Below are positions 1,021 through 19,801 of a stretch of 64,000 bases of DNA, piece after piece. The notes beneath the pieces are model-generated. The model was not told the origin of the DNA, searched no databases, and was given only the letters and a program-made list of their open reading frames with translations. The stretch's first letter is position 1. Every line of letters begins with the position of its first letter. Both the position numbers and the translations under genes were made by a program. Origin of the DNA: a bacterium (lineage in GTDB: Bacteria; Elusimicrobiota; Elusimicrobia; UBA1565; UBA9628); contig JAJZCM010000002.1 of NCBI GenBank assembly GCA_021846045.1, positions 16,585 to 80,584 of the forward strand, in the 5' to 3' direction.

Positions 1021-1136
1021 TTTTTTCTGTAACATTTTGTTTATAACCTTGAAATCTTTTTGTGACGCGCATCTGTTAATCTAAATAGTGACGGCACACA
1101 ACGGTACGACATCAAGATTGACAACAGCTCACATTA

Positions 1137-2717: not shown

Positions 2718-2771
2718 CCAAGGCTATTATGATACTTTCCAAAGACTTAGTAAAATGAAAAAGGCGCGGAC

Positions 2772-3980: not shown

Positions 3981-3997
3981 GGACTGTCCCTATTTGT

Positions 3998-4495: not shown

Positions 4496-4659
4496 AATGC
4501 GCCCTCTCATTTCCCTAATTTTTTCCTGCGCCCCAAAAATAAGCCCGCCGATGAAAAGCGCCGCTTTTTGCCCCCAATTGTTTTCCATTTTTTGATTGGA
4601 ACGGATGAACGCCTCTATTTTATATAATGAAAGGGCCGCTTCGCGCGGCTCGCTTCTAT

Positions 4660-4733
4660 GCGGGCGTGGTTCAATGGTAGAACGGGTCCTTGCCAAGGAT
4701 CAGACGAGGGTTCGATTCCCTTCGCCCGCTCCA
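4660..4733 (+). tRNA. tRNA-Gly (anticodon GCC)
   Basis: Cloverleaf GCGGGCG...CGCCCGC acceptor, anticodon loop TTGCCAA, T-arm GGTTCGATTCC, 3' CCA encoded. Confidence 0.85.
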
Positions 4734-4755
4734 GATTCCCAAAGGCATTTCCTCG

Positions 4756-4789
4756 ACGACAGCGGCGTCTAATCTGTCGTTTTTATTTT
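4756..4789 (+). terminator. rho-independent terminator downstream of tRNA-Gly
   Basis: Stem ACGACAG / CTGTCGT followed by TTTTATTTT. Confidence 0.5.
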
Positions 4790-4908
4790 CCGGCGGCTGA
4801 TCCAATTTAGGCGCTGGTGTCCATATGGTGGCTGAATTCAACCTGTAAGTGCAACACCCAAGGTTATGAAGGCCTCGCTGGGTTTTTCTTGAACGCTAAA
4901 AAATAGCA

Positions 4909-5004
4909 TTGACGGGACATGATTTTGTGGTATACTACTAATACAACCCCATTCCCTTCGGGGGGTGGGCGCGAAGCCATCCGCAAGGGTGGCTTCTGCT
5001 TTTT
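4909..5004 (+). promoter_or_regulatory. promoter plus structured 5' leader (repeat A1) of the NYN nuclease gene
   Basis: TTGACG-17nt-TATACT sigma70-like promoter, then a leader with hairpins (CCCTTCGGGG; GAAGCCA...TGGCTTC) ending in a T-run immediately before the ATG. A ~75% identical copy (A2) lies at 12306-12420. Confidence 0.5.
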
Positions 5005-5619
5005 ATGAGAACATTCGTTTACGTGGACGGCTTTAACCTCTACTACCGCGCCTTGCGCAATACGCCCTACCGGTGGCTTGACCTCTCCAAACTCGCGCAA
5101 ATTCTGTTGCCCAAGCATCAAATCCACAGGATTCGCTACTATACGGCCCGCGTTACCGCTCGCCCCGGCGATCCTGATCAGCCGACCAGACAGCAGTTCT
5201 ATCTGCGGGCCTTGGCGACGATTCCCAACCTTTCCATCACCTACGGCCAATTCCTAACGCATAAAAAGAAAATGACTTTAGCCTCCGATCCGGCTAAAAC
5301 CATCGAGGTGCTCAAGACGGATGAAAAAGGCTCCGATGTGAATTTAGCGACCCACTTGATCTACGAGGCCATGCGTGATGAGTTTGACGCGGCCGTCGTC
5401 GTCTCGAACGATTCAGACCTAGCGGAACCCATTCGTATCGTTACTCAGGAGGTTCACAGGAAAGTAGGCATCCTGACTCCGGCCAGAATCCCGACACGTG
5501 AATTGCTTAAATATTGCACCTTCTATAAGCCGATACGAAACGCCGTGCTGGCGGCCAGCCAATTTCCTCTGGAACTTGAGGACGCTCATGGCAAGTTCCG
5601 CAAGCCGGACTCCTGGTAG
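5005..5619 (+). CDS. NYN-domain (LabA-like, PIN-fold) putative nuclease
   Basis: MRTFVYVDGFNLYY..., EKGSDVNLATHLIYEA, VVVSNDSDL: canonical NYN/LabA motifs. Confidence 0.7.
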   Translation: MRTFVYVDGFNLYYRALRNTPYRWLDLSKLAQILLPKHQIHRIRYYTARVTARPGDPDQPTRQQFYLRALATIPNLSITYGQFLTHKKKMTLASDPAKTIEVLKTDEKGSDVNLATHLIYEAMRDEFDAAVVVSNDSDLAEPIRIVTQEVHRKVGILTPARIPTRELLKYCTFYKPIRNAVLAASQFPLELEDAHGKFRKPDSW

Positions 5620-5624
5620 ATTCT

Positions 5625-5859
5625 TGGTGTCTATCCGGTGTCCATAACAGTCTAATTCCAGCAAAGAGGCGGGCTTGTGATTATCGCATTTCCCGACGGC
5701 GGTCATAAACCGTCAGAATCGGTCAAAGTTTAGATTTCCCCTCGCCCGCTGGGGCATCTTCAAGGCCGGTTCAGGTGCGCTCGATCTCGATTCCGAATTC
5801 CCCGTCCTCTTCGTGGACGTGAAGCGTCAGCGCCCGGCAACAGACCTGGCAGTCCTCGT
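5625..5859 (+). repeat. 235-bp perfect direct repeat, copy B1 (contains orphan 3' end of CPXCG zinc-ribbon gene)
   Basis: Identical base-for-base to 13442-13676. The reverse strand encodes ...EDCQVCCRALTLHVHEEDGEFGIEIERT*, the C-terminus of the gene at 13588-13902. Confidence 0.9.
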
Positions 5860-5860
5860 C

Positions 5861-7276
5861 TCAAGGGATGTTCCCCTCGGGGCATGGGGGTTTGGATTCC
5901 GCCCTTTTTTTCCAGTCTTCGATAAGGGATACGATTTCTGGACGGGATGTCTCTGCAAAGTCCTCCGCATTGAGCCCATGATTCTCCTTGGCATCAACGT
6001 CGGCCCCAGCTTGGAGAAGAAGGGAGATCACGTTTGCATGACCTTTGCCAGCCGCCCAGATCAGCGCGGTGAACCCCTTCATGTTCTTGGCATTGACATC
6101 GGCCCCGGCCTTGAGAAGAAGGGGGATCACGTTCACATGACCATTATTAGCCGCCCACATCAGCGCGGTGGACCCACCCACGGTCCTAGCATTGACATCT
6201 GCCCCGGCCTGGAGAAGAGGGGGGATCATGTCCGCATGACCATCGTGGGCCGCCCACATCAGTGCGGTGTTCCCATCATTATCCCCGGCATTGACGTCAG
6301 CCCCAGCCTTGAGAAGAAGGGGGATCACGTTCGCATAACCACTGTGAGCCGCATTCATCAGCCCGGTGTCCCCATCCTTGTCACTGGTATTGACATCGGC
6401 CCCGGCCGCAAGAAGAAGGGGGATCGCGTTCGCATGACTCTGGGCAGCCGCATATATCAGTGCAGTCCTCCCACTCTTGTTCCCGGCATTGACGTCAGCC
6501 CCAGCCTTGAGAAGAAGGGAGATCGTGTCCGCATCACCACCCAACGCCGCCCACATCAGCGCGGTTAACCTATTATTGTCCCTGGCATTGACATCAGCTC
6601 CGGCCTTGAGAAGAGGGCGGATCACGTTCGCATAACCACTGTGAGCCGCCAACATCAGCGCGGTGGCCCCCTCCTCGCCCCTGGCATTGACGTTGGCCCC
6701 AGCCTTGAGAAGAAGGGAGATCACGTTCGCATGACCATTGTCAAGCGCGAACATCAGCGTGGTGTACCCATCATCGCTCTTGGCATTGACATCGGCCCCG
6801 GCCTGGAGAAGAAGGGGGATCACGCTCGCATGACCATTGCTAAGCGCACGCATCAGCGCGGTGAGCCCAAGCTCGCCCTTAGCATTGACGTTGGCCCCAG
6901 CTTGGAGAAGAAGGCGGACCACGTTCGCATGACCATCCGCAGCCGCATACATCAGTGCGGTGTCCCCACCCACGCCCCTGGCATTGACGTTGGCCCCAGC
7001 CTTGAGAAGAATGGGGATCACGTTCGCATGACCACTATCAACCGCCCATATCAGCGCGGTCCACCCAACCTTGTTCCCGGCATTGACATCGGCTCCGGCC
7101 TGGAGAAGAATGGAAATCACGTTCGCTTGACCTTGTTGAGCCGCATTCATCAGCGCGGTGGTCCCGTTCTCATCCTTAGCGTTGACGTCCGCGCCTTTTT
7201 CTATGAGGGTCAGAATTTTCCCGACGTTTTCCTCCTTACAGGCATCGATGAAACTTTGATCTGCTCGTTTTTCCAT
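5861..7276 (-). CDS. ankyrin-repeat protein (about 13 ANK repeats)
   Basis: 471 aa with tandem 33-aa units (G.TALM.AA..GH..V...LL.AGADVNA...). The stop codon sits exactly at the B1 repeat boundary. Confidence 0.85.
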   Translation of the reverse strand: MEKRADQSFIDACKEENVGKILTLIEKGADVNAKDENGTTALMNAAQQGQANVISILLQAGADVNAGNKVGWTALIWAVDSGHANVIPILLKAGANVNARGVGGDTALMYAAADGHANVVRLLLQAGANVNAKGELGLTALMRALSNGHASVIPLLLQAGADVNAKSDDGYTTLMFALDNGHANVISLLLKAGANVNARGEEGATALMLAAHSGYANVIRPLLKAGADVNARDNNRLTALMWAALGGDADTISLLLKAGADVNAGNKSGRTALIYAAAQSHANAIPLLLAAGADVNTSDKDGDTGLMNAAHSGYANVIPLLLKAGADVNAGDNDGNTALMWAAHDGHADMIPPLLQAGADVNARTVGGSTALMWAANNGHVNVIPLLLKAGADVNAKNMKGFTALIWAAGKGHANVISLLLQAGADVDAKENHGLNAEDFAETSRPEIVSLIEDWKKRAESKPPCPEGNIP

Positions 7277-7346
7277 TTGCTCTAACCCCCTCGTCCGTTC
7301 TGAGATTTTTTCTGAACTACCAAGACAAATCGCTCAAGGATTAATC

Positions 7347-7781
7347 TCATTGGAGAAACCGATACAACTTACTATATTTTTCCAACTGCCTTCTTCTTTC
7401 TCGATAATTTCGATGTCTTTCCACGGCATTGGGATTGTAAGGATTCCAATTATCCCGAACCTTCTTAATGCGATAATTCTCCGCCGCTGTTTTAAAGATT
7501 GGAATCCCTGCTATGGAAGACGCTCCATTCTCAAAACTCCGTCTAATGAATTCACGGGATTCTTTTTTGGGGAGAGTCGCGTATTGAATGACAACTTGGC
7601 CGTTTTTCTCTTTTCGCAATTCGGCTAATTGTTCTTTGATGGAGGATATCTCGCTGTGCAACCTCGCGATAGAACCTGTTTGAGAACTTGTATGCGGCTT
7701 TTCAGAGGTTTTTATCGTTATTAACTCTGCTGATGCCGAACCGGCAGTCACTAATAAAAACAGAATCCAATTTTTTGACAT
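7347..7781 (-). CDS. small secreted hypothetical protein
   Basis: The ORF has signal-peptide-like MSKNWILFLLVTAGSASA at an internal Met. The mature part is charged and Arg-rich. Confidence 0.4.
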   Translation of the reverse strand: MSKNWILFLLVTAGSASAELITIKTSEKPHTSSQTGSIARLHSEISSIKEQLAELRKEKNGQVVIQYATLPKKESREFIRRSFENGASSIAGIPIFKTAAENYRIKKVRDNWNPYNPNAVERHRNYRERRRQLEKYSKLYRFLQ

Positions 7782-7807
7782 GTGATTATCCCCCCTACGC
7801 TTAATCA

Positions 7808-8188
7808 TTATTTCCTTTTAGAAATTGCTGAAGCCGCCATCGCCAAGAAAACTCCAATAAAAAACCACTTTATTATGAAAAAAAATACTTTAAAGATACC
7901 GCCCAAGACGCTAAGCGTAGTATCCCCAGCCTTACTCCATTCTGACGCTTGAGAAGAGTTTTTCCTTAACTTCGTTTCCGGCATCTCCACGGCTTCCATT
8001 CTTTGAGACATCGTCGTCTGGCAGCTTGGGATAAAAAACTTCATGTTTGCTTCTTGATGAGCTTTGAGTTCTGCCCTTATTTTACTGCTGCAATTCAAGA
8101 TATTGATGTTGTTATCAATATTATCCGTATCAATCTCCGCCTCCACGTTATTATCCCAATCCTGCTCAAGGGCCTCATTAAAATTCAT
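7808..8188 (-). CDS. hypothetical tail-anchored membrane protein
   Basis: 126-aa ORF with acidic N-terminus and a single C-terminal TM (FKVFFFIIKWFFIGVFLAMAASAI). Confidence 0.35.
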   Translation of the reverse strand: MNFNEALEQDWDNNVEAEIDTDNIDNNINILNCSSKIRAELKAHQEANMKFFIPSCQTTMSQRMEAVEMPETKLRKNSSQASEWSKAGDTTLSVLGGIFKVFFFIIKWFFIGVFLAMAASAISKRK

Positions 8189-8198
8189 AAACCACCCC

Positions 8199-8531
8199 CT
8201 ATTTCATCCCCAACTCTCCCAATAGATTGCCAACAATGATCCCGGAATCGGATTTCCAGTTCTCGATCCTAGGGTCTGCTTGATGCCCTAAAATTCTCCT
8301 TCCTTGGTAAAAAGTCAAGCTTTTTTGAATTCCACGATTTAATCGTGTCGTGGCAACTCTCGCGAGCCGGCAATACCTTAAAAACAACGCGACTTGTCTT
8401 AAGGTAAGTGGAAAAAGACTCATGTTAATATCTTTTTCAAAGGCCGCGACTGTCTTTTTAACGTCTTCCAACAACATTTCCCGTTCTCTATGCCGGAACA
8501 TCGCGATTTTCCTTGTGTTAGGTGACATCAT
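8199..8531 (-). CDS. hypothetical small protein (possible HTH)
   Basis: 110-aa ORF tightly packed between neighbours on the same strand. No recognisable family. Confidence 0.3.
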   Translation of the reverse strand: MMSPNTRKIAMFRHREREMLLEDVKKTVAAFEKDINMSLFPLTLRQVALFLRYCRLARVATTRLNRGIQKSLTFYQGRRILGHQADPRIENWKSDSGIIVGNLLGELGMK

Positions 8532-8546
8532 TATCTTAACCCCCTT

Positions 8547-10007
8547 TTATCCCCAAGCGTTATACTTGCTGTTGATATATCTTGAAAAATCACTTTCTTT
8601 GGAAAGAAGCCTGCTCTTATCCTCAAAGTAATAATCGTTATAACGATCCAAATTAATCGTATTTTCTTCGGTGACTATTCCAATTTCCTTGGCTTGGCGT
8701 ATAATAAGCCCCCATTTTTCTTTTGAGAGAGTTATCCTTTTGGATATAAAATCCTGGATATACTCGCCCGCGTCTACACCTTCTTCATGCTTTAAACAGG
8801 ACACCGCGCTATTAAAAGCCATAATAAAGAGAGACCAATCTTTCCAAATCTTAAAGGTATACGATGACTTTGTGTAACCGCTTGGTCTTCCGTAAATCAT
8901 GCCTCTGTCCGGCTTTTCCATCTTTTCTAACTCCTCCAAGCCTTCAACCCGAGTCATTCTAAACTCTGGAGTAGGCGCCGCCTTTATACTGACGGTTTTA
9001 GGAGGAACGCAGGTCTGCACGTGGAATAATCCCTCGCCTTCCGGGGATTTTACCCACGCGGACCCTATCGCTTCGGAATCCGTATTATCAGGGCATTCCC
9101 CCAGTATGGACATATAATCTGTATTCGTAGGAAGCCTAAAAGCTATCCTCGTTGGAAAATTAACTTTTATGGAATTTGATACCGCCGCAACCGTGGGACG
9201 CTGCGTCGCCACTATTAAATGAATCCCAGCCGCTCTCGCCAATTGACCAAGGCGAGTAACGCAACTCTCAATCATAGCCCCATCCCCACAGCTTAATAAT
9301 TCCGCGAATTCATCAATAATAACGACTATCCTCGGCATCTTCTTCCCAGATTGGATATATTGATGAATATTCAAATATCCCTCTTTTCCAAAAATGGATA
9401 ATCGCTGCTTCATTTCGACGATGAGAAGCCCCAATATTTTTACGCAGTCTACAGCGGATTTAACAACGCTATACGGGGCGATTGGATTATATAGGAAGGC
9501 ATCATTAGCATAACAGGTGAAATCAACGCCTTTTGGGTCCATGAGAACAATCCGAACTTCGTTCGCGGTATTGGCCCTTCTTAACGCCTCGATCACGCAC
9601 TTAATGTAAGAAGATTTTCCAGAACCGGAGCTCCCCGCGATAAGCAAATGCGTGGTCTTAAGAAAATCAAAGAACCTTAATTTTCCAAACGCATCCATCC
9701 CAACCGGAATTGATAATGATGAAAAACCCTCCGGCACGGATTTTATTACGTCCTCAAATAACAAAGAGATGGGGGCATGGGACCGAAGCTCAAATCCGAT
9801 CAAGCCTCGCTTATACGGAACATGGAGGCGGATATCGCATCCAATAGCGACGGAGATATCCAGCAGTCTTGATTTTAAAGAAGAGACTCTTAATGCGGGA
9901 GAAACCGCTAATTCGTGAATCTCTGAATTAAGCGTTTTAACGATGCCGCTGGATTTTAAATCAAACCCATAAGACTTTAGAACCTCTTCCAAGTCTTTCC
10001 CAAGCAT
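8547..10007 (-). CDS. FtsK/SpoIIIE-family DNA-translocase-like ATPase with unknown C-terminal domain
   Basis: Walker A GSSGSGKSS, Walker B VVIIDEFAELL, FtsK motif VATQRPT. The ~160-aa C-terminal extension has no recognisable family. Confidence 0.75.
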   Translation of the reverse strand: MLGKDLEEVLKSYGFDLKSSGIVKTLNSEIHELAVSPALRVSSLKSRLLDISVAIGCDIRLHVPYKRGLIGFELRSHAPISLLFEDVIKSVPEGFSSLSIPVGMDAFGKLRFFDFLKTTHLLIAGSSGSGKSSYIKCVIEALRRANTANEVRIVLMDPKGVDFTCYANDAFLYNPIAPYSVVKSAVDCVKILGLLIVEMKQRLSIFGKEGYLNIHQYIQSGKKMPRIVVIIDEFAELLSCGDGAMIESCVTRLGQLARAAGIHLIVATQRPTVAAVSNSIKVNFPTRIAFRLPTNTDYMSILGECPDNTDSEAIGSAWVKSPEGEGLFHVQTCVPPKTVSIKAAPTPEFRMTRVEGLEELEKMEKPDRGMIYGRPSGYTKSSYTFKIWKDWSLFIMAFNSAVSCLKHEEGVDAGEYIQDFISKRITLSKEKWGLIIRQAKEIGIVTEENTINLDRYNDYYFEDKSRLLSKESDFSRYINSKYNAWG

Positions 10008-10414
10008 AACCTTACCCCCCTTATAGAAGTTTAAGCTCTGGACTTTCGTTTTAACGCTTTGTTTATTGCATCAACCGAGCAAGGGTGCAGAACCAACATC
10101 TCGGTTGCTTAGGCCAGTGTAGCCATAAGTTAAACTAAAAAACACCCAGCGTTACTACGCTACAAAAGTGGTGGGTAATGGCCGAAATACGCAACTTCTT
10201 CAACCATCCGCTTTATCCGTGAAATATCTTTTATCAATTCCTCAACACAACCTCACCCCAGGATTATAGACCCCATCTTGAACTTTTTCAAGGGGGCGAA
10301 AAATTTGCGCAACGGAAGGGTTATGAGTTAAACTAAAAAATCGCTCGGCCGGGGTGGGTCCAGGTAGGTGGGACGCGACAGGCGGAACAAAGCCGACAAT
10401 GGGAGGGAACCTAA

Positions 10415-10882
10415 GTGCATTATATTGACGACAATCTTGTGGAAGGCGAGTCCGTTATTTTTCAAACAACACTCCACTGGATAACCGCGTGTTTGCCGCT
10501 TATCGGCAGTCTGTTTTTTTGGCTCTGCGCTTGGCTCGAAATCGGTCTCAATGAGGGCTATCCTGCACTGGGCTACTTTCTAATGGGGGGCCTAATTGCC
10601 TCAGCGCCCTTCATTGCAATATCTACTTCGGAATTTGGAATTGCGACGCAAAGGGTGATGATTAAGGTCGGGCTCCTTCAGACGCATACTCTTGAGATAT
10701 TCCTGTCCAAGGTGGAGTCCATATCCGTGGACCAAACGATTGTCGGATGACTTTTAGGATATGGGACACTGGTGGTCAAAGGGACTGGCGGAACAGCAGA
10801 GCCGTTCCCATGAGTAAAAGATGCTTTTGAATTCCGCAAGAAAGTGCAAGAGCAAATTGCAAGGACGAAAACAGAAAAATGA
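10415..10882 (+). pseudogene. bPH_2 (YdbT-like bacterial PH) domain membrane protein interrupted by two in-frame TGA codons
   Basis: Two TM helices then RVMIKVGLLQTHTLEIFLSKVESISVDQTIVG-[TGA 10748]-LLGYGTLVVKGTGGTAEPFP-[TGA 10811]-VKDAFEFRKKVQEQIARTKTEK-[TGA 10880]. The conserved bPH_2 motifs continue in the same frame across both internal TGAs. Confidence 0.55.
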
Positions 10883-10966
10883 AGCTCTCAAAAAAGTTTT
10901 CTCCTCCGGGAACTCCCAGATTGCGAAGATGAGTGTGAGATGAATGAATCAAAGGAGAAAAAACGA

Positions 10967-11254
10967 ATGCCGACCTATAAAACATACACGTGCTACCAGT
11001 CCCCCATGGGACCGCACACTGTCTCTGTGCCCGAATGGCAAGAGCCGCCGGATGATATATGTCCGGAGACTGGCATCAAGAGACACAAATGGGTCATTGC
11101 CACCAATGCTCGCTCGGGAACCTGGAACTGTGGCGAATGCGCTAAGCCAATAGGAGTAAATGATTGCGTCCTCTGTGAGAATGGTTGCGGACAAAAATTC
11201 CACAAAACTTGCTTCGAAAAGCACAATCGAGGGGCGCATTCCGGGCAAGCGTAA
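10967..11254 (+). CDS. Cys-rich RING/PHD-like zinc-finger protein
   Basis: AAGGAG RBS 7 nt upstream. C-x2-C-x7-C-x2-C-x3-C-x4-H-x2-C-x3-H pattern (NCGECAKPIGVNDCVLCENGCGQKFHKTCFEKH). Same frame as the bPH_2 ORF, TAA stop. Confidence 0.45.
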   Translation: MPTYKTYTCYQSPMGPHTVSVPEWQEPPDDICPETGIKRHKWVIATNARSGTWNCGECAKPIGVNDCVLCENGCGQKFHKTCFEKHNRGAHSGQA

Positions 11255-11272
11255 AGGGTTTGAGACAATAGT

Positions 11273-11581
11273 ATGAACATAAAATCGGTTGCGCATCTAT
11301 TTGAGTCCTCAGGCACTGCTTTAGGTGCCGTAAAGGATTTGCAATGGAATGAGGGCCAACAAAAATTTGTGAAGGTCCAGAGCATAGGCGGCGCAGTGGA
11401 ACTAGTGCCCGGATTCCAAGAAAGCGGCGAAATTACTTTCTACATCAACAAACCTCTCAGCGTAGCAAAAACGTATCGGCTCAAAATGCTTAGCAAGGCC
11501 ATTCCAATTAAAATAACGCACGTGGAAGGTCCCGGTGGGGATGGATTCTATTTTGTCCGTGCCAGTCAAATGCAGGCGTAG
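11273..11581 (+). CDS. hypothetical protein
   Basis: 102-aa ORF directly downstream of the Cys-rich gene. No recognisable motif. Confidence 0.3.
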   Translation: MNIKSVAHLFESSGTALGAVKDLQWNEGQQKFVKVQSIGGAVELVPGFQESGEITFYINKPLSVAKTYRLKMLSKAIPIKITHVEGPGGDGFYFVRASQMQA

Positions 11582-11584
11582 CCC

Positions 11585-11932
11585 ATGGGCTGTTGCGTGG
11601 AATGTTTGGCGGCCTCTTGGTGGTGGATTTTTGGGGTGGCATTCAGCGCCTTTTGGAGCATTCGTAGCTGCTGTCTCTTTACGAAAGAATATCGAGATTG
11701 TGAAAAATTTTGGTGGGGTAGCTACCAATTCATTCTCAATTTTTCTTGCTCCTTTGCTGGCTGGATATGCCTTCATATTCTGGAATTACGTTTCATGTCT
11801 GTGGGTCATGTCAATCAACTTAGCTGGGCAGACTTCGCTCTGTTTTTGCTTGCCCTGCTTGGCGTTACCGGATCGCTACCACAGTTTTTAGTCAAGTTGC
11901 CGGAGGCCATTGTCAAGGCGACCAAGAGCTGA
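11585..11932 (+). CDS. hypothetical Cys/Trp-rich membrane protein
   Basis: 115-aa ORF 3 nt after the previous stop. An overlapping alternative frame (11535-11891) also looks membrane-like, so the frame assignment is uncertain. Confidence 0.25.
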   Translation: MGCCVECLAASWWWIFGVAFSAFWSIRSCCLFTKEYRDCEKFWWGSYQFILNFSCSFAGWICLHILELRFMSVGHVNQLSWADFALFLLALLGVTGSLPQFLVKLPEAIVKATKS

Positions 11933-12305
11933 ACGAAGAAATGAGGAGAACTATGCCAAGAACAAGAAGAGGGACACCACTGATCCGGAGAAAGATAGTT
12001 GAACACGTAGCCTATCCGGAATGCAAGACGGAATTAGCCGTCAGCATCAGAGTATTGAGACGCAGGTAGCCGCGCCGCGAAGTTGCCGGAGGCTGAATAC
12101 GGCCTTCAGTCAGATGAAACTTGGAGCGCACCGTGGAATCACCCCTTTCGCTTTCTTCCCTCTTGTCTTGTGATGCCGAACATACATCTCTCTCATGTAT
12201 TCCCACCTCGCATTGGGACTCATCAAAATGACCTCCCGGATCCAAAAAGAAACCTTCAGGAAGCATTATACCTCGCCCTTTTTTCGGTAACATTTTCAAA
12301 TGAGT

Positions 12306-12420
12306 TGACACGACGACATGATTTTGTGGCATACTAATTACACAACCCCCAACCCTAGTGGAAGGGGTGCGAGGCCGCTCGAAAGGACGGCTTCTGCATT
12401 TTATGAGAACATACGTTACG
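12306..12420 (+). promoter_or_regulatory. promoter + structured leader repeat A2 with truncated NYN-like start (MRTYV...)
   Basis: TTGACA...CATACT followed by a leader homologous to A1, including the GAGGCCG...CGGCTTC hairpin and T-run. ATG at 12403 opens only a 16-codon remnant. Confidence 0.45.
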
Positions 12421-12606
12421 CAGACGGTCGCAAAGACTCTTGCTTTTTTTGATACAACGAATCATCATTAGGGGAGATAAGATGACCCATCAAGAGATTT
12501 ATGAGAAGGAGTATGGCGAAAAAGGTTGGGAGAAGCTCAATTCTAGGATTAAGAAAATCTTCAAGCGTATTGATTCTTTGCCGTCTTTAAGCGACAAACA
12601 AGTTAA

Positions 12607-12831
12607 TTGATTTCGTGGGCATTGACAATCTTTATAATCTGTCTTATACTGAAGTGTATTCGACAAGGGGATGTTAACATGAGTAGCAAAAAATTCTTGA
12701 TTAGCGCGATGGGTAGAAAGAATTATCTCAACCTGTCGAAAAGCTTCAGAGAAAATATCGATCTCTTAGACAAGCTCCCACCGACCGCCAAGCCGGTCAC
12801 ATTGAAGCAGATCGAAAACGCCCTGAAATAG
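12607..12831 (+). CDS. small hypothetical protein, possible antitoxin-like partner of the PIN gene
   Basis: 74-aa ORF (the likelier start is the internal MSSKKFLISAMGRKNYLNL at 12679) ending 15 nt before the PIN gene. An extra 42-codon ORF at 12481-12609 precedes it. Confidence 0.3.
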   Translation: MISWALTIFIICLILKCIRQGDVNMSSKKFLISAMGRKNYLNLSKSFRENIDLLDKLPPTAKPVTLKQIENALK

Positions 12832-12846
12832 CGCTATACAAGAGCG

Positions 12847-13404
12847 ATGGGCCAATACTGTTACTTGTTTGATGCAAGTGCCTTGGTTGCGCTGTTGCTC
12901 AAGAATCCCGATGGCGATGTGAAAATTGCCAAAGGGAAAATTTTAAAATTGCTTGCCAATGGGCGCAAGAATGAAAATTCGCTGTTTTTCGTTCCAAATA
13001 TTTGTATGGCCGAGGTATCTTCGGCTTTGGCCAAAATTTTTCTAGCAGACGGCTATACAGAACAAAGAGAGAACTCGTATCGACAGCATGTTGAATTTCT
13101 TCTGGAGTGGGTTTCATCGAAGAAAAGGCATGTAATACAAACCTACGCTCTCAAACGCTCACATCTTGTCGATATCGAACATATTTTTATTGCCGACCGG
13201 AAGTTGCCTGGGAGAAAAGGGAACCCGCTGAGTGGGCATGATGGCATCATAATTGCCATGGGGCGTGTCCTTGGAAGAACATATGGGAACGGGAACGTAA
13301 TAATTTTAACTCTTGACGGAAGAATGGCTGACGTTTGCGTCCATAACCGGGATTTTTTCCCCCATGCCATAGACCTTGCCAGACAAGAAATTCCTGGCGC
13401 CTAG
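12847..13404 (+). CDS. PIN-domain (VapC-like) putative nuclease
   Basis: N-terminal YLFDASALVALL, later AEV and SGHDGIIIAMG acidic motifs, consistent with a PIN fold. It ends 37 nt before repeat B2. Confidence 0.5.
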   Translation: MGQYCYLFDASALVALLLKNPDGDVKIAKGKILKLLANGRKNENSLFFVPNICMAEVSSALAKIFLADGYTEQRENSYRQHVEFLLEWVSSKKRHVIQTYALKRSHLVDIEHIFIADRKLPGRKGNPLSGHDGIIIAMGRVLGRTYGNGNVIILTLDGRMADVCVHNRDFFPHAIDLARQEIPGA

Positions 13405-13441
13405 AAGTTTTGCGTTGATTGCCGCCGCTCGTATGTCTGAG

Positions 13442-13676
13442 TGGTGTCTATCCGGTGTCCATAACAGTCTAATTCCAGCAAAGAGGCGGGCTTGTGATTA
13501 TCGCATTTCCCGACGGCGGTCATAAACCGTCAGAATCGGTCAAAGTTTAGATTTCCCCTCGCCCGCTGGGGCATCTTCAAGGCCGGTTCAGGTGCGCTCG
13601 ATCTCGATTCCGAATTCCCCGTCCTCTTCGTGGACGTGAAGCGTCAGCGCCCGGCAACAGACCTGGCAGTCCTCGT
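13442..13676 (+). repeat. 235-bp perfect direct repeat, copy B2 (native 3' end and downstream region of the CPXCG gene)
   Basis: Identical to 5625-5859. Confidence 0.9.
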
Positions 13677-13902
13677 AGAGAATTTGGCCCGCGTCATCGG
13701 ATGAAACCTTGATCTCGAAGCTTTCGTCGCAGTAGGGGCATTCAACCAATACGTCTTGCTCCAAGACCTCGTCTCCGGATTGAGTGGATATTTCTTCGAG
13801 GACGGATTCGAGAACCTGTCCGTTTGAATAGGCGGGGGCTTCCGGCTGAGATTTTTGCCGCTCCTTTTTTACGTGGCCTGCGGTTTTAGTTTTGCTTTTC
13901 AT
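13588..13902 (-). CDS. CPXCG-motif cysteine-rich zinc-ribbon protein with Lys-rich N-terminal extension
   Basis: VECPYCDESFEIKV...YEDCQVCCRALTLHVHEEDGEF matches the CPXCG family. The last 28 codons lie inside repeat B2. Confidence 0.6.
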   Translation of the reverse strand: MKSKTKTAGHVKKERQKSQPEAPAYSNGQVLESVLEEISTQSGDEVLEQDVLVECPYCDESFEIKVSSDDAGQILYEDCQVCCRALTLHVHEEDGEFGIEIERT

Positions 13903-13977
13903 CTCTTCACCTCTTAGACTTTCTTCTTTTTCAAAATATAATGCACGAACTCATTTTGCGCAAGACCCAGAAAGGAC

Positions 13978-14247
13978 CTAGTGTAGCGTTCCGAAAATAA
14001 CTGGACAATGGAAGGCCTAGATTTGAGGGCAGTTCGAGGCGCGACGAGGACGCAGGCCGAGGCCTGTAACCGAGGAGCAACGAAGAAATACCCCGAAGAT
14101 AGGCCTTCCCTTCGGGTTGGGCTATTTTGCCCAGCTTCTATGTTGCTCGGCGCTTACATAGCTCAAGCTATGCTCGCTTCTCGCGCCTTGAATCTGGCCA
14201 AACTAGCCCCAACCATTGTCCAGTTATTTTCGGAACGCTACACTAGA
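13978..14247. mobile_element. MITE-like element with 34-bp perfect terminal inverted repeats
   Basis: CTAGTGTAGCGTTCCGAAAATAACTGGACAATGG at 13978-14011 is the exact reverse complement of 14214-14247. The interior is further imperfectly palindromic. No coding capacity (the 80-aa ORF 14008-14250 is spurious). Confidence 0.6.
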
Positions 14248-14282
14248 TAAAATGATAATATCGGCAAGGAGGGGGAAATTTT

Positions 14283-17006
14283 ATGTCAAAATCCAAGGAT
14301 AGTTTTAAAGCCGCGTCAATTCTCGACGTCGACGGAAAAAAATATCATTATTACGCTCTTGATGCCTTGTCCCGACAGGGCTTTGATTTATCAAGGCTCC
14401 CATTTTCCTTGAAAGTATTTTTGGAGAATCTCTTGAGGTTTGAGGACGGGCAAAACGTCAAGGCTTCCGATATCGAGGCCTTGGCCTCGTGGACAAAAAA
14501 ATCCGCGTCCGGGCGCGAGGCGTTTTTTATGCCCGCCCGCGTCTTAATGCAGGATTTTACCGGCGTTCCGGCGGTGGTGGACTTGGCTGCGATGCGGGAC
14601 GCGGTCAAAATGCGCGGCGGGGACCCGCAGGCGATTAACCCCTCGATTCCGGTCGATTTGGTCATTGACCACTCGGTCCAGGTTGATTTTTTTGGAACTG
14701 CAGATTCTCTGGCTAAAAACGCGGAGATTGAATTTTCGCGCAACCAGGAGCGCTACGCTTTCCTTAAATGGGGGCAAAAGGCGTTTCGTAATTTCCGCGT
14801 TGTTCCGCCGGAGACCGGCATCTGCCATCAAGTCAATTTGGAATATTTGGCGAAGGTCGTCTGGTCTCAAGAAATCGAAGAGAAAACCTGGGTTTATCCC
14901 GACACCTTGGTCGGCACCGATTCCCACACGACGATGATTAACGGGCTCGGCGTTTTAGGTTGGGGAGTGGGCGGAATCGAGGCCGAGGCGGCGATGTTGG
15001 GACAATCCTTGTCCATGTTGATTCCCGAGGTTGTCGGCTTTAAGCTTACCGGGCGCTTGCCAGCCGGGTCCACCGCTACCGACGCGGTTTTGACCGTCAC
15101 CGAGATGCTGCGAAAAAAAGGCGTGGTCGGGAAGTTCGTCGAATTTTACGGCCCGGGGCTTTCTTCTCTTCCGGTCGCCGACCGCGCGACCTTGGCCAAC
15201 ATGGCGCCGGAATACGGCGCGACCGCAGGCTTTTTCCCGGTTGATAGCCAGACGCTTAAATATCTTCATTTAACCGGGCGTGCGGAAAAAGAAATCGGCT
15301 TGGTTGAGGCCTATTGCAAAAAACAGGGCCTTTTTAGGGAAGACTCTTCTCTGGAACCGCATTTTTCAAGCTCTCTCTCGCTTGATTTGGGGACCGTCGA
15401 GCCTTCCGTCGCCGGGCCCAAGCGTCCGCAGGACCGCGTGGTTTTATCCGAGGTCAAGAAATCTTGGAAGGCGGCCTTGGAGGTTCTGGTTAAGGAAAAA
15501 GACAAAAAGGGAAACTTGCCCGCTCCCATGGGAACCACAGTTGAGGTTAAAGTGGGCGGGGAAACGGCGTCTCTCTCGCATGGTTCGGTCGCTATAGCGG
15601 CGATCACCTCCTGCACGAATACGTCAAACCCCGCCGTTCTTGTCGCCGCCGGGCTTCTCGCTAAAAAAGCCGTGGAGAAGGGCCTAAAAGTCAAACCTTG
15701 GGTCAAGACAAGCCTGGCCCCGGGGTCAAAAGCCGTTGCGGAATATCTTAGAGCTTCCGGGCTTTCAAAATATTTGGACGAACTCGGCTTTCAACTGGTG
15801 GGCTACGGCTGCACAACCTGCATTGGAAATTCGGGTCCCCTTCCCGAACCCGTGGCCCAGGCCGTTTCGGACAAAAATTTGATTGTCGCGGCGGTTTTAT
15901 CCGGAAACCGGAATTTCGAGGGGCGCGTCAACGCCTTGGTCAAGGCCAATTATTTAGCCTCGCCGCCCTTGGTCATCGCCTATGCCTTGGCCGGAAATAT
16001 CGAGATGGATTTAAAATCCGATCCCTTGGGAAAAGACGCCAAGGGCGCGCCGGTCTATCTCAAGGACATTTGGCCGACGCACGAGGAAGTTTCAAAAATC
16101 ATATCGGATTTCGTCCACCGGGAACTTTTCGTTAAAACCTACGCCGATGTTTTTTCCGGAGGAAAAAATTGGCGCTCGATTGAGGTTTCAAAGGGGGACG
16201 TCTACGACTGGGCGATGAGTTCGACCTACATCCGCAAGGCCCCTTATTTCGATCATTCCGAAAGCCGGGACGGAAAAGATGTCGCCGGCGCTCGGGCGCT
16301 GGCGGTTTTCGGCGATTCCATTACCACCGACCATATCTCCCCAGCCGGGTCTTTCCCGAAAGATTCTCCTGCGGGAAAATACCTGCTTGAGCGCGGTGTT
16401 GATTTTAGGGATTTCAACTCGTACGGTTCTCGGCGCGGCAACCACGATCTGATGACGCGGGGCGCTTTCGCCAACACCCGCATTAAAAACCTGATGCTCG
16501 ACATCTCCGGCGGATATTCCTTGGTTCTGCCCGAGAAAAAACAGACGACCATTTTCGAGGCCGCCGAGGAATATCTCAAGCGGAAGGTTCCGCTCATTAT
16601 TTTGGCCGGAAAAGAATACGGCTCCGGCTCCAGCCGCGACTGGGCGGGAAAAGGCCCGGCCCTTTTAGGGATAAAGGCCGTCATCGCCCAAAGTTTTGAG
16701 CGCATTCATCGCTCGAACTTGGTCGGCATGGGCATTCTGCCGCTGGAATTTTTGCCGGGCCAAAACGTCCAGTCCTTGGGCCTGACCGGCTTTGAGACCT
16801 TTTCCATTGAAGGCATCAAGGCGTTGAGCCCCAAGAAAGAGTTACGGGTCGCGGCCAAAAAAGAAGACGGAAAGACGACCGAGTTTAATGTCCTGGCCCG
16901 CATTGATACCGCAGTTGAGCTTAAGTATTGGAAGTTCGGCGGCATCTTGCCGTATGTCCTTGAGCAAATTCTTGCCCAGGGCCAAAAGGAAGCCGTGGGG
17001 GCGTAG
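14283..17006 (+). CDS. acnA: aconitate hydratase A
   Basis: 907 aa with aconitase/IRP family hallmarks (SGNRNFEGR, Cys ligand regions CTNTSNP / GCTTCIGNSGP). Confidence 0.9.
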   Translation: MSKSKDSFKAASILDVDGKKYHYYALDALSRQGFDLSRLPFSLKVFLENLLRFEDGQNVKASDIEALASWTKKSASGREAFFMPARVLMQDFTGVPAVVDLAAMRDAVKMRGGDPQAINPSIPVDLVIDHSVQVDFFGTADSLAKNAEIEFSRNQERYAFLKWGQKAFRNFRVVPPETGICHQVNLEYLAKVVWSQEIEEKTWVYPDTLVGTDSHTTMINGLGVLGWGVGGIEAEAAMLGQSLSMLIPEVVGFKLTGRLPAGSTATDAVLTVTEMLRKKGVVGKFVEFYGPGLSSLPVADRATLANMAPEYGATAGFFPVDSQTLKYLHLTGRAEKEIGLVEAYCKKQGLFREDSSLEPHFSSSLSLDLGTVEPSVAGPKRPQDRVVLSEVKKSWKAALEVLVKEKDKKGNLPAPMGTTVEVKVGGETASLSHGSVAIAAITSCTNTSNPAVLVAAGLLAKKAVEKGLKVKPWVKTSLAPGSKAVAEYLRASGLSKYLDELGFQLVGYGCTTCIGNSGPLPEPVAQAVSDKNLIVAAVLSGNRNFEGRVNALVKANYLASPPLVIAYALAGNIEMDLKSDPLGKDAKGAPVYLKDIWPTHEEVSKIISDFVHRELFVKTYADVFSGGKNWRSIEVSKGDVYDWAMSSTYIRKAPYFDHSESRDGKDVAGARALAVFGDSITTDHISPAGSFPKDSPAGKYLLERGVDFRDFNSYGSRRGNHDLMTRGAFANTRIKNLMLDISGGYSLVLPEKKQTTIFEAAEEYLKRKVPLIILAGKEYGSGSSRDWAGKGPALLGIKAVIAQSFERIHRSNLVGMGILPLEFLPGQNVQSLGLTGFETFSIEGIKALSPKKELRVAAKKEDGKTTEFNVLARIDTAVELKYWKFGGILPYVLEQILAQGQKEAVGA

Positions 17007-17073
17007 CCGGGACAATCCTGGAGCCCGAAAGCGCGCGGCTAAATTTGTCCATATTATTCTGTCACGGAGACTA

Positions 17074-17589: not shown

Positions 17590-17608
17590 TTTTAAAAATT
17601 ATTTTTGA

Positions 17609-17824: not shown

Positions 17825-17868
17825 GCGACAGTGATAAACTCAAAAAGGCGGGCTAGGGGTTCTAAGAA

Positions 17869-18156: not shown

Positions 18157-18180
18157 ACCAAGGACTGATTAGTAACAACC

Positions 18181-19799: not shown

Positions 19800-19801
19800 G
19801 G

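What the first reader, a model, noticed from the sequence alone, without database searches (positions are those of the whole stretch)
5625..13676. 7.8-kb accessory island bounded by 235-bp perfect direct repeats that duplicate the 3' end of a CPXCG zinc-ribbon gene
Positions 5625-5859 and 13442-13676 are identical base-for-base over 235 bp. Copy B2 holds the authentic last 28 codons plus downstream region of the minus-strand CPXCG gene (13588-13902). Copy B1 holds an orphan copy of those codons with no gene body attached. The ankyrin gene stop codon falls 1 nt outside B1. Duplicating a target gene's 3' end at both junctions is the classic footprint of site-specific integration (attL/attR), though it could also result from homologous recombination. 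The cargo is atypical. It has a 13-repeat ankyrin protein, an FtsK/SpoIIIE-like ATPase, small secreted or tail-anchored proteins, a TGA-interrupted bPH_2 gene and a RING-like Cys-rich protein. No integrase, recombinase or relaxase is recognisable. Either a decayed element was fixed in place or mobilisation is supplied in trans. A tRNA-Gly lies 0.9 kb to the left.
Basis: seen in the sequence. Interest (0 to 1): 0.75.

Follow-up and report, generated by a model that had tools for sequence, protein, structure and literature searches.

The report
Integrase-less island remnant at tRNA-Gly hotspot
A 7.8-kb stretch of foreign genes in an uncultured Elusimicrobia bacterium is present in some strains and cleanly missing in others; it is the decayed, integrase-less remnant of a rare mobile element lodged at a tRNA gene, which is ordinary genomic-island biology with a few unusual details.

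Summary
Window 5625-5859 and 13442-13676 are identical over 235 bp, and the gene content is as described.

- **Empty site.** It exists in GCA_027401925.1. There, 5.9 kb of left flank and 10.5 kb of right flank match the window at 100%, with one repeat copy and no island.
- **Related species.** Four related Elusimicrobia species lack both the island and the NYN gene. In them tRNA-Gly abuts the CPXCG gene.
- **The landmark is the tRNA, not the CPXCG gene.** Each repeat contains a 15-nt copy of the tRNA-Gly 3' end, 20 nt from the CPXCG stop, exactly where the real tRNA ends in relatives.
- **A nested structure.** An 8.8-kb composite insertion sits at a recurrent tRNA-Gly insertion site. The inner 7,817-bp unit varies within the species.
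- **Origin of part of the cargo.** The FtsK-like gene and three small genes (7326-10066) are 91% identical in DNA to the same module of an element in another MAG. That element carries a tyrosine integrase, an excisionase-like HTH, a primase and a helicase. None of these survives in the window.
- **Most likely mechanism.** This is a non-autonomous remnant, gained or lost by recombination across the 235-bp repeats.

How the first copy of the repeat formed is unresolved.

The parts
4660..4733 (+). tRNA-Gly(GCC). Its 3' end (4716-4730, TTCCCTTCGCCCGCT) is the left copy of the att-like core.
   Evidence: ARAGORN, Rfam tRNA 67.9 bits, core search. In relatives L110 and L044 this tRNA ends 18-20 nt from the CPXCG stop.
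4731..4872 (+). Left arm of the composite insertion, including a tRNA terminator-like hairpin at 4761-4781. Its first ~30 nt (CCAGATT...ATTTCCT) resemble the sequence after the tRNA core in L045 and L043.
4873..5030 (+). A1: promoter (TTGACG-16-TATACT), a two-hairpin leader and the first 26 nt of the NYN gene. This is the NYN family's own conserved 5' region.
   Evidence: Homology to 12271-12427. Fold z-score -4.6. The same leader precedes a 76%-identical NYN gene in another Elusimicrobia genome, L130.
5005..5619 (+). NYN-domain gene (204 aa), a PADLOC HEC-09-like candidate defence RNase. It is present in both the empty and the filled allele and absent from related species.
   Evidence: Pfam NYN 2.2e-11, PADLOC HEC-09 2.1e-42 full length, phrog_7929 1.8e-70, no tblastn hit in L110/L043/L044/L045.
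5625..5859 (.). B1, left copy of the 235-bp repeat. It consists of 111 nt of element-side arm (5625-5735), the tRNA-Gly-like core (5736-5750), a 20-nt spacer (5751-5770) and an orphan copy of the last 89 nt of CPXCG (5771-5859, minus strand).
5861..7276 (-). Ankyrin-repeat gene (471 aa, GC 0.58). Its TGA stop is in frame with the orphan CPXCG tail.
   Evidence: A distant relative of the element (L020) carries a Sel1/ankyrin-repeat gene in the same position.
7326..10066 (-). Conserved four-gene module: FtsK/SpoIIIE-like ATPase (8547-10007), p110 (8199-8531), p126 tail-anchored membrane protein (7808-8188) and p153 secreted protein (7347-7808). GC is 0.40-0.43.
   Evidence: 91% nt identity to L123 9942-12738. 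Protein identities 93%, 91%, 78% and 93%. dN/dS 0.13-0.19. The module is also conserved in L020.
10067..10414 (.). Divergent promoter region. It has a minus-strand promoter-like site at 10291-10263. Segment 10230-10298 is homologous to L123. Segment 10067-10229 (164 nt) is absent from L123. In contig L014 a different sequence joins at 10071.
10415..10882 (+). bPH_2 (membrane-flanked domain) pseudogene with in-frame TGA codons at 10748 and 10811.
   Evidence: Pfam bPH_2, phrog_3707 1.5e-13, translation, stop-codon usage.
10940..11932 (+). Three small genes of unknown function: a Cys-rich RING/C1-like protein (10940-11254), p102 (11273-11581) and the membrane protein p115 (11585-11932).
   Evidence: The same genes are called in independent assemblies.
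12271..12427 (+). A2: a diverged (~82%) copy of the NYN promoter, leader and first ~26 nt of the ORF, with a 1-nt deletion. It is the remnant of a second NYN gene whose body has been replaced.
12482..13404 (+). Three-gene cassette: p42 (12482-12610), p50 (12679-12831) and a PIN-like 185-aa protein (12847-13404). It may be a toxin-antitoxin or defence cargo.
   Evidence: Pfam PIN at only E=0.023, below threshold. No PDB, NCBIfam or PADLOC match. The structure model is too poor to use.
13442..13676 (.). B2, right copy of the 235-bp repeat. It consists of the arm (13442-13552), the tRNA-Gly-like core (13553-13567), the spacer (13568-13587) and the authentic last 89 nt of CPXCG (13588-13676).
13588..13902 (-). 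CPXCG zinc-ribbon gene (104 aa), part of the chromosomal backbone and conserved next to acnA in related species.
   Evidence: Pfam PF14255 2.5e-13. 77-89% identical orthologues in L110 and L043-L045.

Best explanation
**What it is.** The region from the tRNA-Gly 3' end (4716) to the tRNA-like core in B2 (13567) is a composite insertion in an Elusimicrobia chromosome. It sits at a site that has been hit repeatedly in this clade.

**The inner unit.** The inner 7,817-bp unit is one B copy plus 5860-13441. It is a mosaic, non-autonomous remnant of a rare family of integrative elements.
- It keeps the family's FtsK-like DNA-translocase module (four genes) and cargo: the ankyrin gene, small membrane proteins and a PIN-like cassette.
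- It has lost the integrase, excisionase-like and primase/helicase modules that an intact relative still carries.

**What the repeats are.** The two 235-bp repeats are copies of the right-hand junction of the older insertion. Each consists of an element arm, the 15-nt tRNA-Gly core, the native 20-nt spacer and the last 89 nt of CPXCG.

**How it most likely works (inferred).**
- The island loops out by recombination between B1 and B2. This leaves the observed empty allele and a 7,817-bp circle.
- It can re-enter an empty allele by a single crossover in B (Campbell-type).
- The crossover is most simply RecA-type homologous recombination, because the identity is perfect for 111 nt left and 109 nt right of the core and ends abruptly. 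An integrase supplied in trans and acting on the core would give the same products.

**Shown versus inferred.**
- Shown: the repeats, the empty and filled alleles, the tRNA-like core, the absence from related species, the homology to an integrase-bearing element, and the absence of a recombinase.
- Inferred: the recombination mechanism, the direction of change (loss or gain), any present-day transfer role of the FtsK-like module, and the event that first joined a CPXCG tail to the ankyrin gene.
For: **Alleles within the species**
- Perfect 235-bp repeat.
- Empty allele in GCA_027401925.1 contig DAHZHZ010000005.1. It is identical to window 1-5859 and 13442-23902, with one B copy.
- Filled allele in independent assemblies:
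  - GCA_027330785.1 crosses NYN-B1-ank and runs through to PIN;
  - GCA_027401875.1 has both outer junctions;
  - several MEGAHIT and Logan contigs match the window at 100%.
- MEGAHIT (k141-named) contigs end exactly 141 nt into B, as expected at graph forks in samples that hold the island.

**Related species**
- L110 and L044 have GSHPx-tRNA-Gly directly followed by CPXCG-acnA.
- L045 has about 130 extra nt at the site. L043 has about 940 extra nt, including a 13-nt duplication of the tRNA core.

**The core**
- TTCCCyTCGCCCGCT occurs three times in the window: in the tRNA, in B1 and in B2.
- In B it lies 20 nt from the CPXCG stop, as the real tRNA end does in L110 and L044.

**Link to an integrative element**
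- L123 (GCA_021829385.1) is arranged as tRNA-Cys, tyrosine integrase, HTH_3, HTH_17, AAA_25 helicase, DnaG-type primase, p256, FtsK-like gene, three small genes, then restriction-modification cargo.
- Window 7326-10066 is 91% identical to its module, with dN/dS 0.13-0.19.
- None of L123's other genes leaves a trace in the window.
- A more distant relative, L020, has a Prim-Pol gene, a MerR-type HTH and the same module followed by a repeat protein.

**Foreign and decaying**
- GC is 0.40-0.43 for the module and 0.58 for the ankyrin gene, against about 0.52 for the host genes.
- Signs of decay are the bPH_2 pseudogene and the truncated NYN remnant A2.

**Homology rather than core-only recombination**
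- B is 100% identical on both sides of the core, whereas the adjacent homologous A segments are only about 82% identical.
Against: - No reads could be mapped. Neither a circular junction nor the real frequency of the empty allele was measured.
- The empty allele was seen directly in one short-read MAG contig. A second is only inferred from contig-length bookkeeping.
- Simple integration or excision does not explain how B1 came to include 109 nt of chromosomal flank joined to the ankyrin gene. The model explains maintenance and loss, not the first event.
- In L123 the integrase lies on the 5' side of tRNA-Cys and the element's other end is off the contig. Integration of this family into tRNA genes is therefore not demonstrated.
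- Which side of the tRNA-Gly junction is native is argued from short spacers only.
- The function of the FtsK-like module is unknown. The protein falls far below the NCBIfam cut-offs for FtsK, EssC and TraB.
Confidence: 0.6

Rival explanations
1. The island is an active non-autonomous element, comparable to a mobilisable island or satellite. A tyrosine integrase from a sibling element in the same community excises and integrates it in trans by site-specific recombination at the 15-nt tRNA-Gly core inside B. Its own FtsK-like module helps move the DNA between cells.
For: - The core is present in both repeats and in the tRNA.
- A sibling with a 99.94%-identical FtsK gene but a different upstream neighbour coexists in sample ERZ27237206.
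- An intact relative encodes integrase and excisionase-like proteins.
- The module's ORFs are intact and under purifying selection.
- The island is 100% identical across many samples and occurs in at least two slightly different strain backgrounds.
- Contig k141_94834 is 7,817+141 nt long, with identical first and last 141 nt.
Against: - No integrase specific for tRNA-Gly was found anywhere.
- Core-only recombination does not predict perfect identity for 111 and 109 nt on either side of the core.
- The circle-like contig starts exactly at the left edge of B, which points to a graph fork rather than a free circle.
- L123's own att site is unidentified.
Confidence: 0.2
2. There is no real polymorphism. 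The 'empty site' contig is an assembly artefact in which the assembler jumped from B1 to B2, and the island is simply a fixed piece of the chromosome.
For: - B (235 bp) is longer than any short-read k-mer, so NYN-B-CPXCG and NYN-B-ank cannot be told apart without spanning read pairs.
- The empty contig has zero differences from the window over 16 kb, as expected if it comes from the same genotype.
- MAG bins often drop short contigs.
Against: - In samples that hold the island, assemblers broke contigs at the edges of B instead of jumping. A contig that runs straight through implies that no competing branch was present.
- No island contig is recorded for that MAG in the look-ups of FtsK, PIN or p102.
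- The longest contig that carries NYN and acnA (108,781 nt) is longer than the longest that carries FtsK and PIN (95,751 nt). This suggests a second empty contig.
Confidence: 0.1
3. A mobile element integrated site-specifically into the 3' end of the CPXCG gene and carried a replacement copy of that gene end, so B1 and B2 are attL and attR.
For: The repeat does duplicate the last 28 codons of CPXCG, and the gene stays intact.
Against: - Most of B (146 of 235 nt) lies outside the gene and includes a tRNA-Gly 3'-end copy at the ancestral tRNA position.
- Other insertions in related species are at the tRNA core, not in CPXCG.
- The left part of B follows the NYN gene, which is itself inserted DNA.
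- No recombinase is present.
Confidence: 0.05
4. This is a purely chromosomal rearrangement, such as a segmental duplication or unequal exchange between alleles of a variable defence locus. No mobile element is involved, and the FtsK-like genes are ordinary accessory genes.
For: - There are two paralogous units, A1-NYN-B1 and A2-(NYN remnant, PIN cassette)-B2.
- NYN and PIN-like nucleases are typical of variable defence loci.
Against: - The FtsK-like module is 91% identical to part of an integrase/primase/helicase-bearing element in another genome.
- GC content deviates strongly from the host.
- A and B differ in divergence (82% against 100%), which a single duplication does not predict.
- The insertion lies at a tRNA 3' end with a duplicated core.
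Confidence: 0.05

Closest known systems
[quoted passage not shown]
   Same: - The intact relative L123 has the AICE-style layout: tyrosine integrase plus small HTH proteins, a replication module, a single FtsK/SpoIIIE-domain protein followed by a few small and partly hydrophobic proteins, then cargo. It lies beside a tRNA gene.
- Tandem accretion at one tRNA, and integrase- or rep-deficient remnants, are described for AICEs. They resemble the nested structure found here.
   Different: - The host is Elusimicrobia, not an actinomycete.
- The ATPase is closest to the cellular FtsK motor (PDB 2iuu, 6e-32) and scores only 59.5 bits against the TraB model, whose cut-off is 800.
- The replication genes are a DnaG-type primase and an AAA_25 helicase.
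- The small proteins have no detectable relatives outside three clusters among 1.84 billion.
- The window copy lacks the integration and replication modules.
- Conjugative transfer is untested.
Classical tRNA-linked genomic islands and prophage remnants (integration at a tRNA 3' end, with short direct repeats of the tRNA end at both borders); from general knowledge
   Same: - Insertion at the T-loop/acceptor end of tRNA-Gly, with a duplicated 15-nt core.
- Intact tRNA on one side and a decayed core on the other.
- Absent from sister species, deviant GC, defence-type cargo, pseudogenes.

   Different: - The repeats that delimit the variable unit are 235 bp and perfect.
- They extend 109 nt past the core into the neighbouring gene and 111 nt into the element arm.
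- No integrase remains.
Campbell-type integration and loop-out by homologous recombination between long direct repeats, as with suicide-plasmid single crossovers or aberrantly excised lambda gal/bio; from general knowledge
   Same: - The geometry is exactly that of a single crossover between a circle carrying a 235-bp chromosomal segment and the chromosome.
- The empty allele is the exact reciprocal product.
   Different: - No circular form was observed.
- The source of the first circle, a chromosomal junction fragment fused to the 3' side of an ankyrin gene, is unknown.
PADLOC HEC-09 (NYN-domain candidate defence gene; bioRxiv 10.1101/2024.01.29.577857)
   Same: The flanking 204-aa NYN protein matches the HEC-09 model over its full length (2.1e-42).
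   Different: - HEC-09 gave no protection against any phage tested.
- The gene lies outside the variable unit; only a 5' remnant of a second copy lies inside it.

Membership tests
tRNA-targeted integrative element / genomic island | Inserted at the 3' end of a tRNA gene, with the tRNA end duplicated at the far border | tested here: met
   The core TTCCCyTCGCCCGCT is at 4716-4730 (tRNA), 5736-5750 and 13553-13567. The copy in B lies 20 nt from the CPXCG stop, where the tRNA ends in L110 and L044.
tRNA-targeted integrative element / genomic island | Encodes its own integrase or recombinase | tested here: not met
   No hit in Pfam, PHROGs, PADLOC or NCBIfam for any island ORF. tblastn with L123's Int, HTH_17, primase and helicase found nothing below E=0.5.
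tRNA-targeted integrative element / genomic island | Empty site in close relatives | tested here: met
   There is a within-species empty allele with 100% identical flanks. Related species L110 and L044 have the tRNA directly next to CPXCG.
tRNA-targeted integrative element / genomic island | Border repeats limited to the att identity segment within the tRNA (tens of bp) | tested here: not met
   The repeats are 235 bp and extend 109 nt beyond the core into CPXCG and 111 nt into the element arm.
AICE-like element (single FtsK-type translocase) | FtsK/SpoIIIE-domain transfer protein | tested here: inconclusive
   The Pfam FtsK_SpoIIIE domain is present (3.9e-28). The NCBIfam plasmid_TraB score is 59.5 against a cut-off of 800, and the FtsK score is 104 against 1566. 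The best solved structure is the FtsK motor, then TcpA.
AICE-like element (single FtsK-type translocase) | Integration/excision and replication modules | tested here: not met
   Both are absent from the window. They are present in the relatives L123 (Int, HTH_17, AAA_25, DnaG Zn-ribbon) and L020 (Prim-Pol, MerR HTH).
AICE-like element (single FtsK-type translocase) | Small hydrophobic Spd-type proteins next to the translocase gene | tested here: inconclusive
   Three small conserved ORFs follow the ATPase gene. p153 has an N-terminal signal-like segment and p126 a C-terminal hydrophobic tail. They have no homology to anything named.
AICE-like element (single FtsK-type translocase) | Actinomycete host and demonstrated dsDNA conjugative transfer | tested here: not met
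   The host is an Elusimicrobia MAG. Transfer cannot be tested with these tools.
Prophage or phage satellite | Capsid, terminase, portal or tail genes, or satellite hallmark genes | tested here: not met
   PHROGs gives only FtsK/SpoIIIE-like, membrane-flanked domain and one unknown family. IMG/VR holds nothing closer than generic FtsK motors. The phage collection gives at most 35% identity over the motor only.
Transposon / IS-bounded element | Transposase, terminal inverted repeats, short target-site duplication | tested here: not met
   There is no transposase domain. There are no inverted repeats at the island borders. The 'duplication' is 235 bp.
PADLOC HEC-09 (NYN) for the flanking gene | Full-length match to the HEC-09 model | tested here: met
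   2.1e-42, covering residues 2-204 of the protein and positions 3-202 of the 203-position model. The published test found no antiviral activity.

The most novel reading that the evidence does not exclude
The island is a living hitchhiker rather than a fossil. It would be an integrase-less, replication-less derivative that keeps only a DNA-translocase module and a portable 235-bp copy of its host's junction. It would spread among conspecific Elusimicrobia by FtsK-type dsDNA transfer followed by RecA-mediated Campbell integration. Its parent family (integrase, primase/helicase, FtsK-like gene, three orphan small proteins) would be an AICE-like single-translocase conjugation system in a phylum where none is known.
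Probability: 0.15. Interest if true: 0.6.

Novelty: new member of a known kind. Interest (0 to 1): 0.35.

Why it matters
- **A clean example.** It shows how a tRNA-linked island decays and still remains variable in a natural population of an uncultured phylum. The recombinase genes are gone, yet long perfect repeats keep the segment removable.
- **A rare element family.** It points to an undescribed family of integrative elements. The marker protein p110 has only three cluster representatives among 1.84 billion. The conserved FtsK-like module of this family may be a minimal DNA-transfer apparatus outside the actinomycetes.
- **A caution for annotation.** Duplication of a gene's 3' end at both borders does not identify that gene as the integration target. 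Here the signal comes from a 15-nt tRNA remnant hidden inside the repeat.

None of this overturns current understanding.

Tried and rejected
- **Public viral and metagenome collections.** The following searches found nothing relevant:
  - IMG/VR with the p110 alignment found nothing, and the FtsK alignment gave only generic FtsK motors at 27-38% identity;
  - JGI metagenomes and IMG/VR have no exact match to the B arm or to a back-translated invariant p110 motif.
- **Plasmid and phage collections.** tblastn hits cover only the FtsK motor, at 35% identity or less.
- **The variant contig L014.** The 59-aa fragment upstream of FtsK in this contig has no homologues. The presumed sibling element could therefore not be recovered.
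- **RNA families.** Rfam finds nothing in 4000-14500 except the tRNA.
- **TGA recoding.** I considered it as an explanation for the interrupted bPH_2 gene and the in-frame ank-CPXCG arrangement. It is rejected because TGA is a normal stop for p153, p115 and p42 in the island.
- **Is the CPXCG 3' end foreign?** I compared identity to relatives inside and outside B. There is no clear discordance and only 89 nt to work with.
- **Does CPXCG homology extend beyond B1 into the ankyrin gene?** BLAST extended the match by 17 nt, but a local alignment against shuffles is not significant.
- **Does the B arm hold a whole tRNA pseudogene?** Only the 15-nt core scores, and the fold z-score is -0.6.
- **Structure of the PIN-like protein.** The model has a mean pLDDT of 42 and is unusable, so no fold search was run.
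- **Integrase elsewhere in the window.** Ten larger ORFs near the other tRNAs are housekeeping genes or unknown.
- **att repeats of L123.** None were found because the far end of the element is off the contig.

Full report
**1. The observation**

Positions 5625-5859 and 13442-13676 are a 235-nt direct repeat with 100% identity, spaced 7,817 nt. I call the two copies B1 and B2.
- B2 holds the last 89 nt of the minus-strand CPXCG gene (13588-13902; Pfam Cys_rich_CPXG, 2.5e-13) and 146 nt downstream of it.
- B1 holds the same 89 nt with no gene body.
- The ankyrin gene (5861-7276, minus strand) stops at a TGA one base beyond B1. The stop is in frame with the orphan tail.
- The listed cargo is present: an FtsK/SpoIIIE-domain ATPase, small membrane or secreted proteins, a bPH_2 gene with two in-frame TGA codons, and a Cys-rich protein with only sub-threshold RING/C1 hits.
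- No recombinase or relaxase was detected with Pfam, PHROGs, PADLOC or NCBIfam.
- A second, diverged homology also exists. Segment A1 (4873-5030) matches A2 (12271-12427) at about 82%.

**2. Host and alleles within the species**

The neighbours are housekeeping genes: a histidine kinase, a CLC channel, glutathione peroxidase, aconitase and Suf genes. The closest aconitase loci in public genomes are all Elusimicrobia MAGs.

Exact-protein look-ups recovered the same locus from several assemblies.
- **Empty allele.** Contig DAHZHZ010000005.1 of GCA_027401925.1 matches window 1-5859 and 13442-23902 with no mismatch. It carries one copy of B and no island.
- **Filled allele.**
  - GCA_027330785.1 runs from the CLC gene through NYN, B1 and the whole island into B2.
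  - GCA_027401875.1 has both outer junctions on two contigs.
  - MEGAHIT and Logan contigs from several samples carry the island at 100% identity.
- **Contig breaks.** In samples that hold the island, the MEGAHIT (k141-named) contigs stop exactly 141 nt into B. That is what a de Bruijn graph fork predicts. A contig that runs straight through B therefore argues that the island was absent or rare in that sample. Without reads this stays an inference.
- **Direction of change.** Strain differences in the flanks are few and clustered. The empty allele is identical to the window's flanks, and a slightly different strain also carries the island. Recent loss is at least as likely as recent gain.

**3. 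Related species, and what the repeat contains**

Four related species have aconitase 81-86% identical to the window's.
- The order in them is kinase, CLC, peroxidase, tRNA-Gly(GCC), then CPXCG and aconitase.
- They have no NYN gene and no island genes.
- In L110 and L044 the tRNA ends 18-20 nt from the CPXCG stop codon.

Inside B, 20 nt from the CPXCG stop, lies TTCCCCTCGCCCGCT. This matches 14 of 15 nt of the tRNA-Gly 3' end, TTCCCTTCGCCCGCT. The motif occurs three times in the window: in the tRNA, in B1 and in B2. Similarity fades immediately upstream of it, as at an att core.

Each repeat is therefore made of four parts:
- 111 nt of element-side arm;
- the 15-nt tRNA core;
- the native 20-nt spacer;
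- 89 nt of CPXCG.

The site has been hit repeatedly.
- L043 has the tRNA core duplicated around a 240-nt insert, followed by an ORF6N gene.
- L045 has about 130 extra nt.
- The first ~30 nt after the tRNA are similar in the window, L043 and L045.

The structure is nested. An outer 8.8-kb insertion runs from 4716 to 13567 and is absent from sister species. The inner 7,817-bp unit is variable within the species. The CPXCG gene is a bystander.

**4. What the island is made of**

*The FtsK-like module.* The FtsK-like protein has very few relatives.
- Apart from a 93%-identical variant and one 42%-identical protein, the best matches are cellular FtsK motors at about 35% identity over 60% of its length.
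- The 93% variant lies in L123 (GCA_021829385.1). Its arrangement is tRNA-Cys, tyrosine integrase, HTH_3, HTH_17, AAA_25 helicase, DnaG-type primase, p256, the FtsK-like gene, three small genes, then a type IIG restriction-modification enzyme.
- Window 7326-10066 is 91% identical in DNA to L123's four-gene module, and the homology stops sharply at both ends.
- dN/dS between the two copies is 0.13-0.19.
- None of L123's integrase, HTH, primase, helicase or p256 genes leaves a trace in the window.
- The 42% relative, L020, has a MerR-type HTH, a Prim-Pol gene, the same module and then a Sel1/ankyrin-repeat gene in the position of the window's ankyrin gene.
- The family is rare:
  - p110 has three cluster representatives among 1.84 billion;
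  - nothing turned up in IMG/VR, JGI metagenomes, or the plasmid and phage collections beyond generic FtsK motors.
- A contig from sample ERZ27237206 has an FtsK gene with one mismatch to the window's, but a different sequence upstream of position 10071. A sibling element therefore coexists in the community. It could not be extended.

*The rest of the island* is unrelated to L123.
- It comprises the ankyrin gene (GC 0.58), the bPH_2 pseudogene, three small genes, and a cassette of p42, p50 and a weakly PIN-like protein.
- The module's GC is 0.40-0.43, against about 0.52 for the host genes.
- The island is therefore a mosaic remnant that keeps one functional-looking module.

**5. The A segments**

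A1 is the promoter and leader of the NYN gene. It has two hairpins, with UUCG and GNRA loops, directly before the ATG (z-score -4.6).
- The same leader precedes a 76%-identical NYN gene at an unrelated locus in another Elusimicrobia genome.
- A2 keeps the promoter, the leader and about 26 nt of the ORF with a 1-nt deletion, and then diverges. The island's right end once carried its own NYN gene.
- The NYN protein matches PADLOC HEC-09 over its full length. The published test of HEC-09 found no phage protection.

**6. Mechanism**

Site-specific integration at the tRNA core explains the outer structure. It does not explain B.
- The identity runs 109 nt past the core into chromosomal flank and 111 nt into the element arm.
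- It is perfect and ends abruptly, while the next homologous segment (A) is only 82% identical.
- The two B copies therefore share a very recent common origin.

The geometry is that of a single crossover between the chromosome and a circle that already carries B. The empty allele is the exact reciprocal product.
- My best account is that the island is a non-autonomous remnant that loops out, and may re-enter, by recombination across B.
- This is most simply RecA-type recombination. An integrase acting in trans on the core would give identical products, and I rank that second.
- I cannot reconstruct the event that first joined a CPXCG tail to the 3' side of the ankyrin gene. Aberrant excision or an unequal exchange are possibilities only.
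- Contig k141_94834 is 7,958 nt long, which is 7,817+141, and its first and last 141 nt are identical. It looks circular. However, it starts exactly at the left edge of B, which points to a graph fork, so it is not evidence for a free circle.

**7. Comparison with known systems**

The intact relatives resemble actinomycete integrative and conjugative elements. Those have integration, replication, a single FtsK-domain translocase, small hydrophobic proteins and tRNA-linked sites, with tandem arrays and remnants (PMC2440964).

Membership is not established.
- The host is Elusimicrobia.
- The ATPase scores far below the TraB, FtsK and EssC cut-offs.
- The small proteins are orphans.
- Transfer is untested.
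- The window copy lacks the integration and replication modules.

Prophage, satellite and transposon readings fail their defining tests.

**8. Verdict**

This is a decayed, strain-variable island at a tRNA-Gly hotspot, which makes it a new member of a known kind. The interest is moderate and lies mainly in two points: the rare FtsK-like element family, and the long perfect repeats that replace a lost recombinase as the means of loss or gain.

Noticed in passing
window 4936-5010; remnant at 12335-12408; L130 7931-8006: NYN (HEC-09-like) genes carry a conserved promoter and a two-hairpin leader (UUCG loop, GNRA loop, then a U-run and the ATG). The second hairpin keeps its pairing, with one compensatory change. 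No Rfam family matches. The NYN family has more than 7,700 homologues at E<1e-20, so this may be an undescribed cis-regulatory RNA.
   Followed up: partly
window 13978-14246: Perfect 34-bp inverted repeats (13978-14011 and 14213-14246) bracket 201 nt between CPXCG and acnA. Related species have only about 130-140 nt between these genes, against 381 nt here. This looks like a MITE-like insertion. It is single-copy in the window and present in all assemblies of this species.
   Followed up: partly
L043 8600-9480: In a related species the tRNA-Gly core CCCTTCGCCCGCT is duplicated around a 240-nt insert. An ORF6N-domain gene follows, before CPXCG. This is independent evidence that the tRNA-Gly end is a recurrent insertion site.
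   Followed up: partly
L014 1-139 (ERZ27237206 k141_263071), joining window position 10071: This contig has an FtsK-like gene with one mismatch to the window's, but an unrelated co-directional gene end upstream. It is probably a sibling element in the same community. The 59-aa fragment has no homologues.
   Followed up: partly
It looks circular but starts exactly at the left edge of B. The B-to-CPXCG branch is missing in that sample's graph. Reads are needed to interpret this.
   Followed up: partly
window 10067-10229 and ~10130 / ~10329: The leader of the FtsK-like operon has a 164-nt insertion relative to L123. A 14-nt direct repeat, GTTAAACTAAAAAA, occurs twice about 199 nt apart.
   Followed up: no
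window 12283-12310: Logan contigs from at least two samples break here, just inside the left edge of A2. This suggests a short repeat or an alternative junction in those metagenomes.
   Followed up: no
window 10415-10882: The bPH_2 gene has in-frame TGA codons at 10748 and 10811, with homology continuing after each. TGA is also a normal stop in the island, so this is a pseudogene and not a sign of recoding.
   Followed up: yes
L130 ~7490-7525 and 11050-11469: At the unrelated NYN locus of another Elusimicrobia genome there is a tRNA 3'-end fragment (GGGTTCGAATCC...CCA) about 480 nt upstream of NYN, with no intact tRNA. Nearby are weak Zn_ribbon_recom fragments and a Schlafen/AlbA_2 gene. NYN sits in mobile or defence contexts there too.
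   Followed up: no
window 20220-20364 and 43848-43891; L005 1906-2050: A dispersed repeat of about 145 nt (94% identical) links window 20220-20364 to sequence just left of the window. A 44-nt piece recurs at 43848-43891.
   Followed up: no
window 40000-45000: There is a strong negative AT skew (-0.23 to -0.33) over about 5 kb.
   Followed up: no
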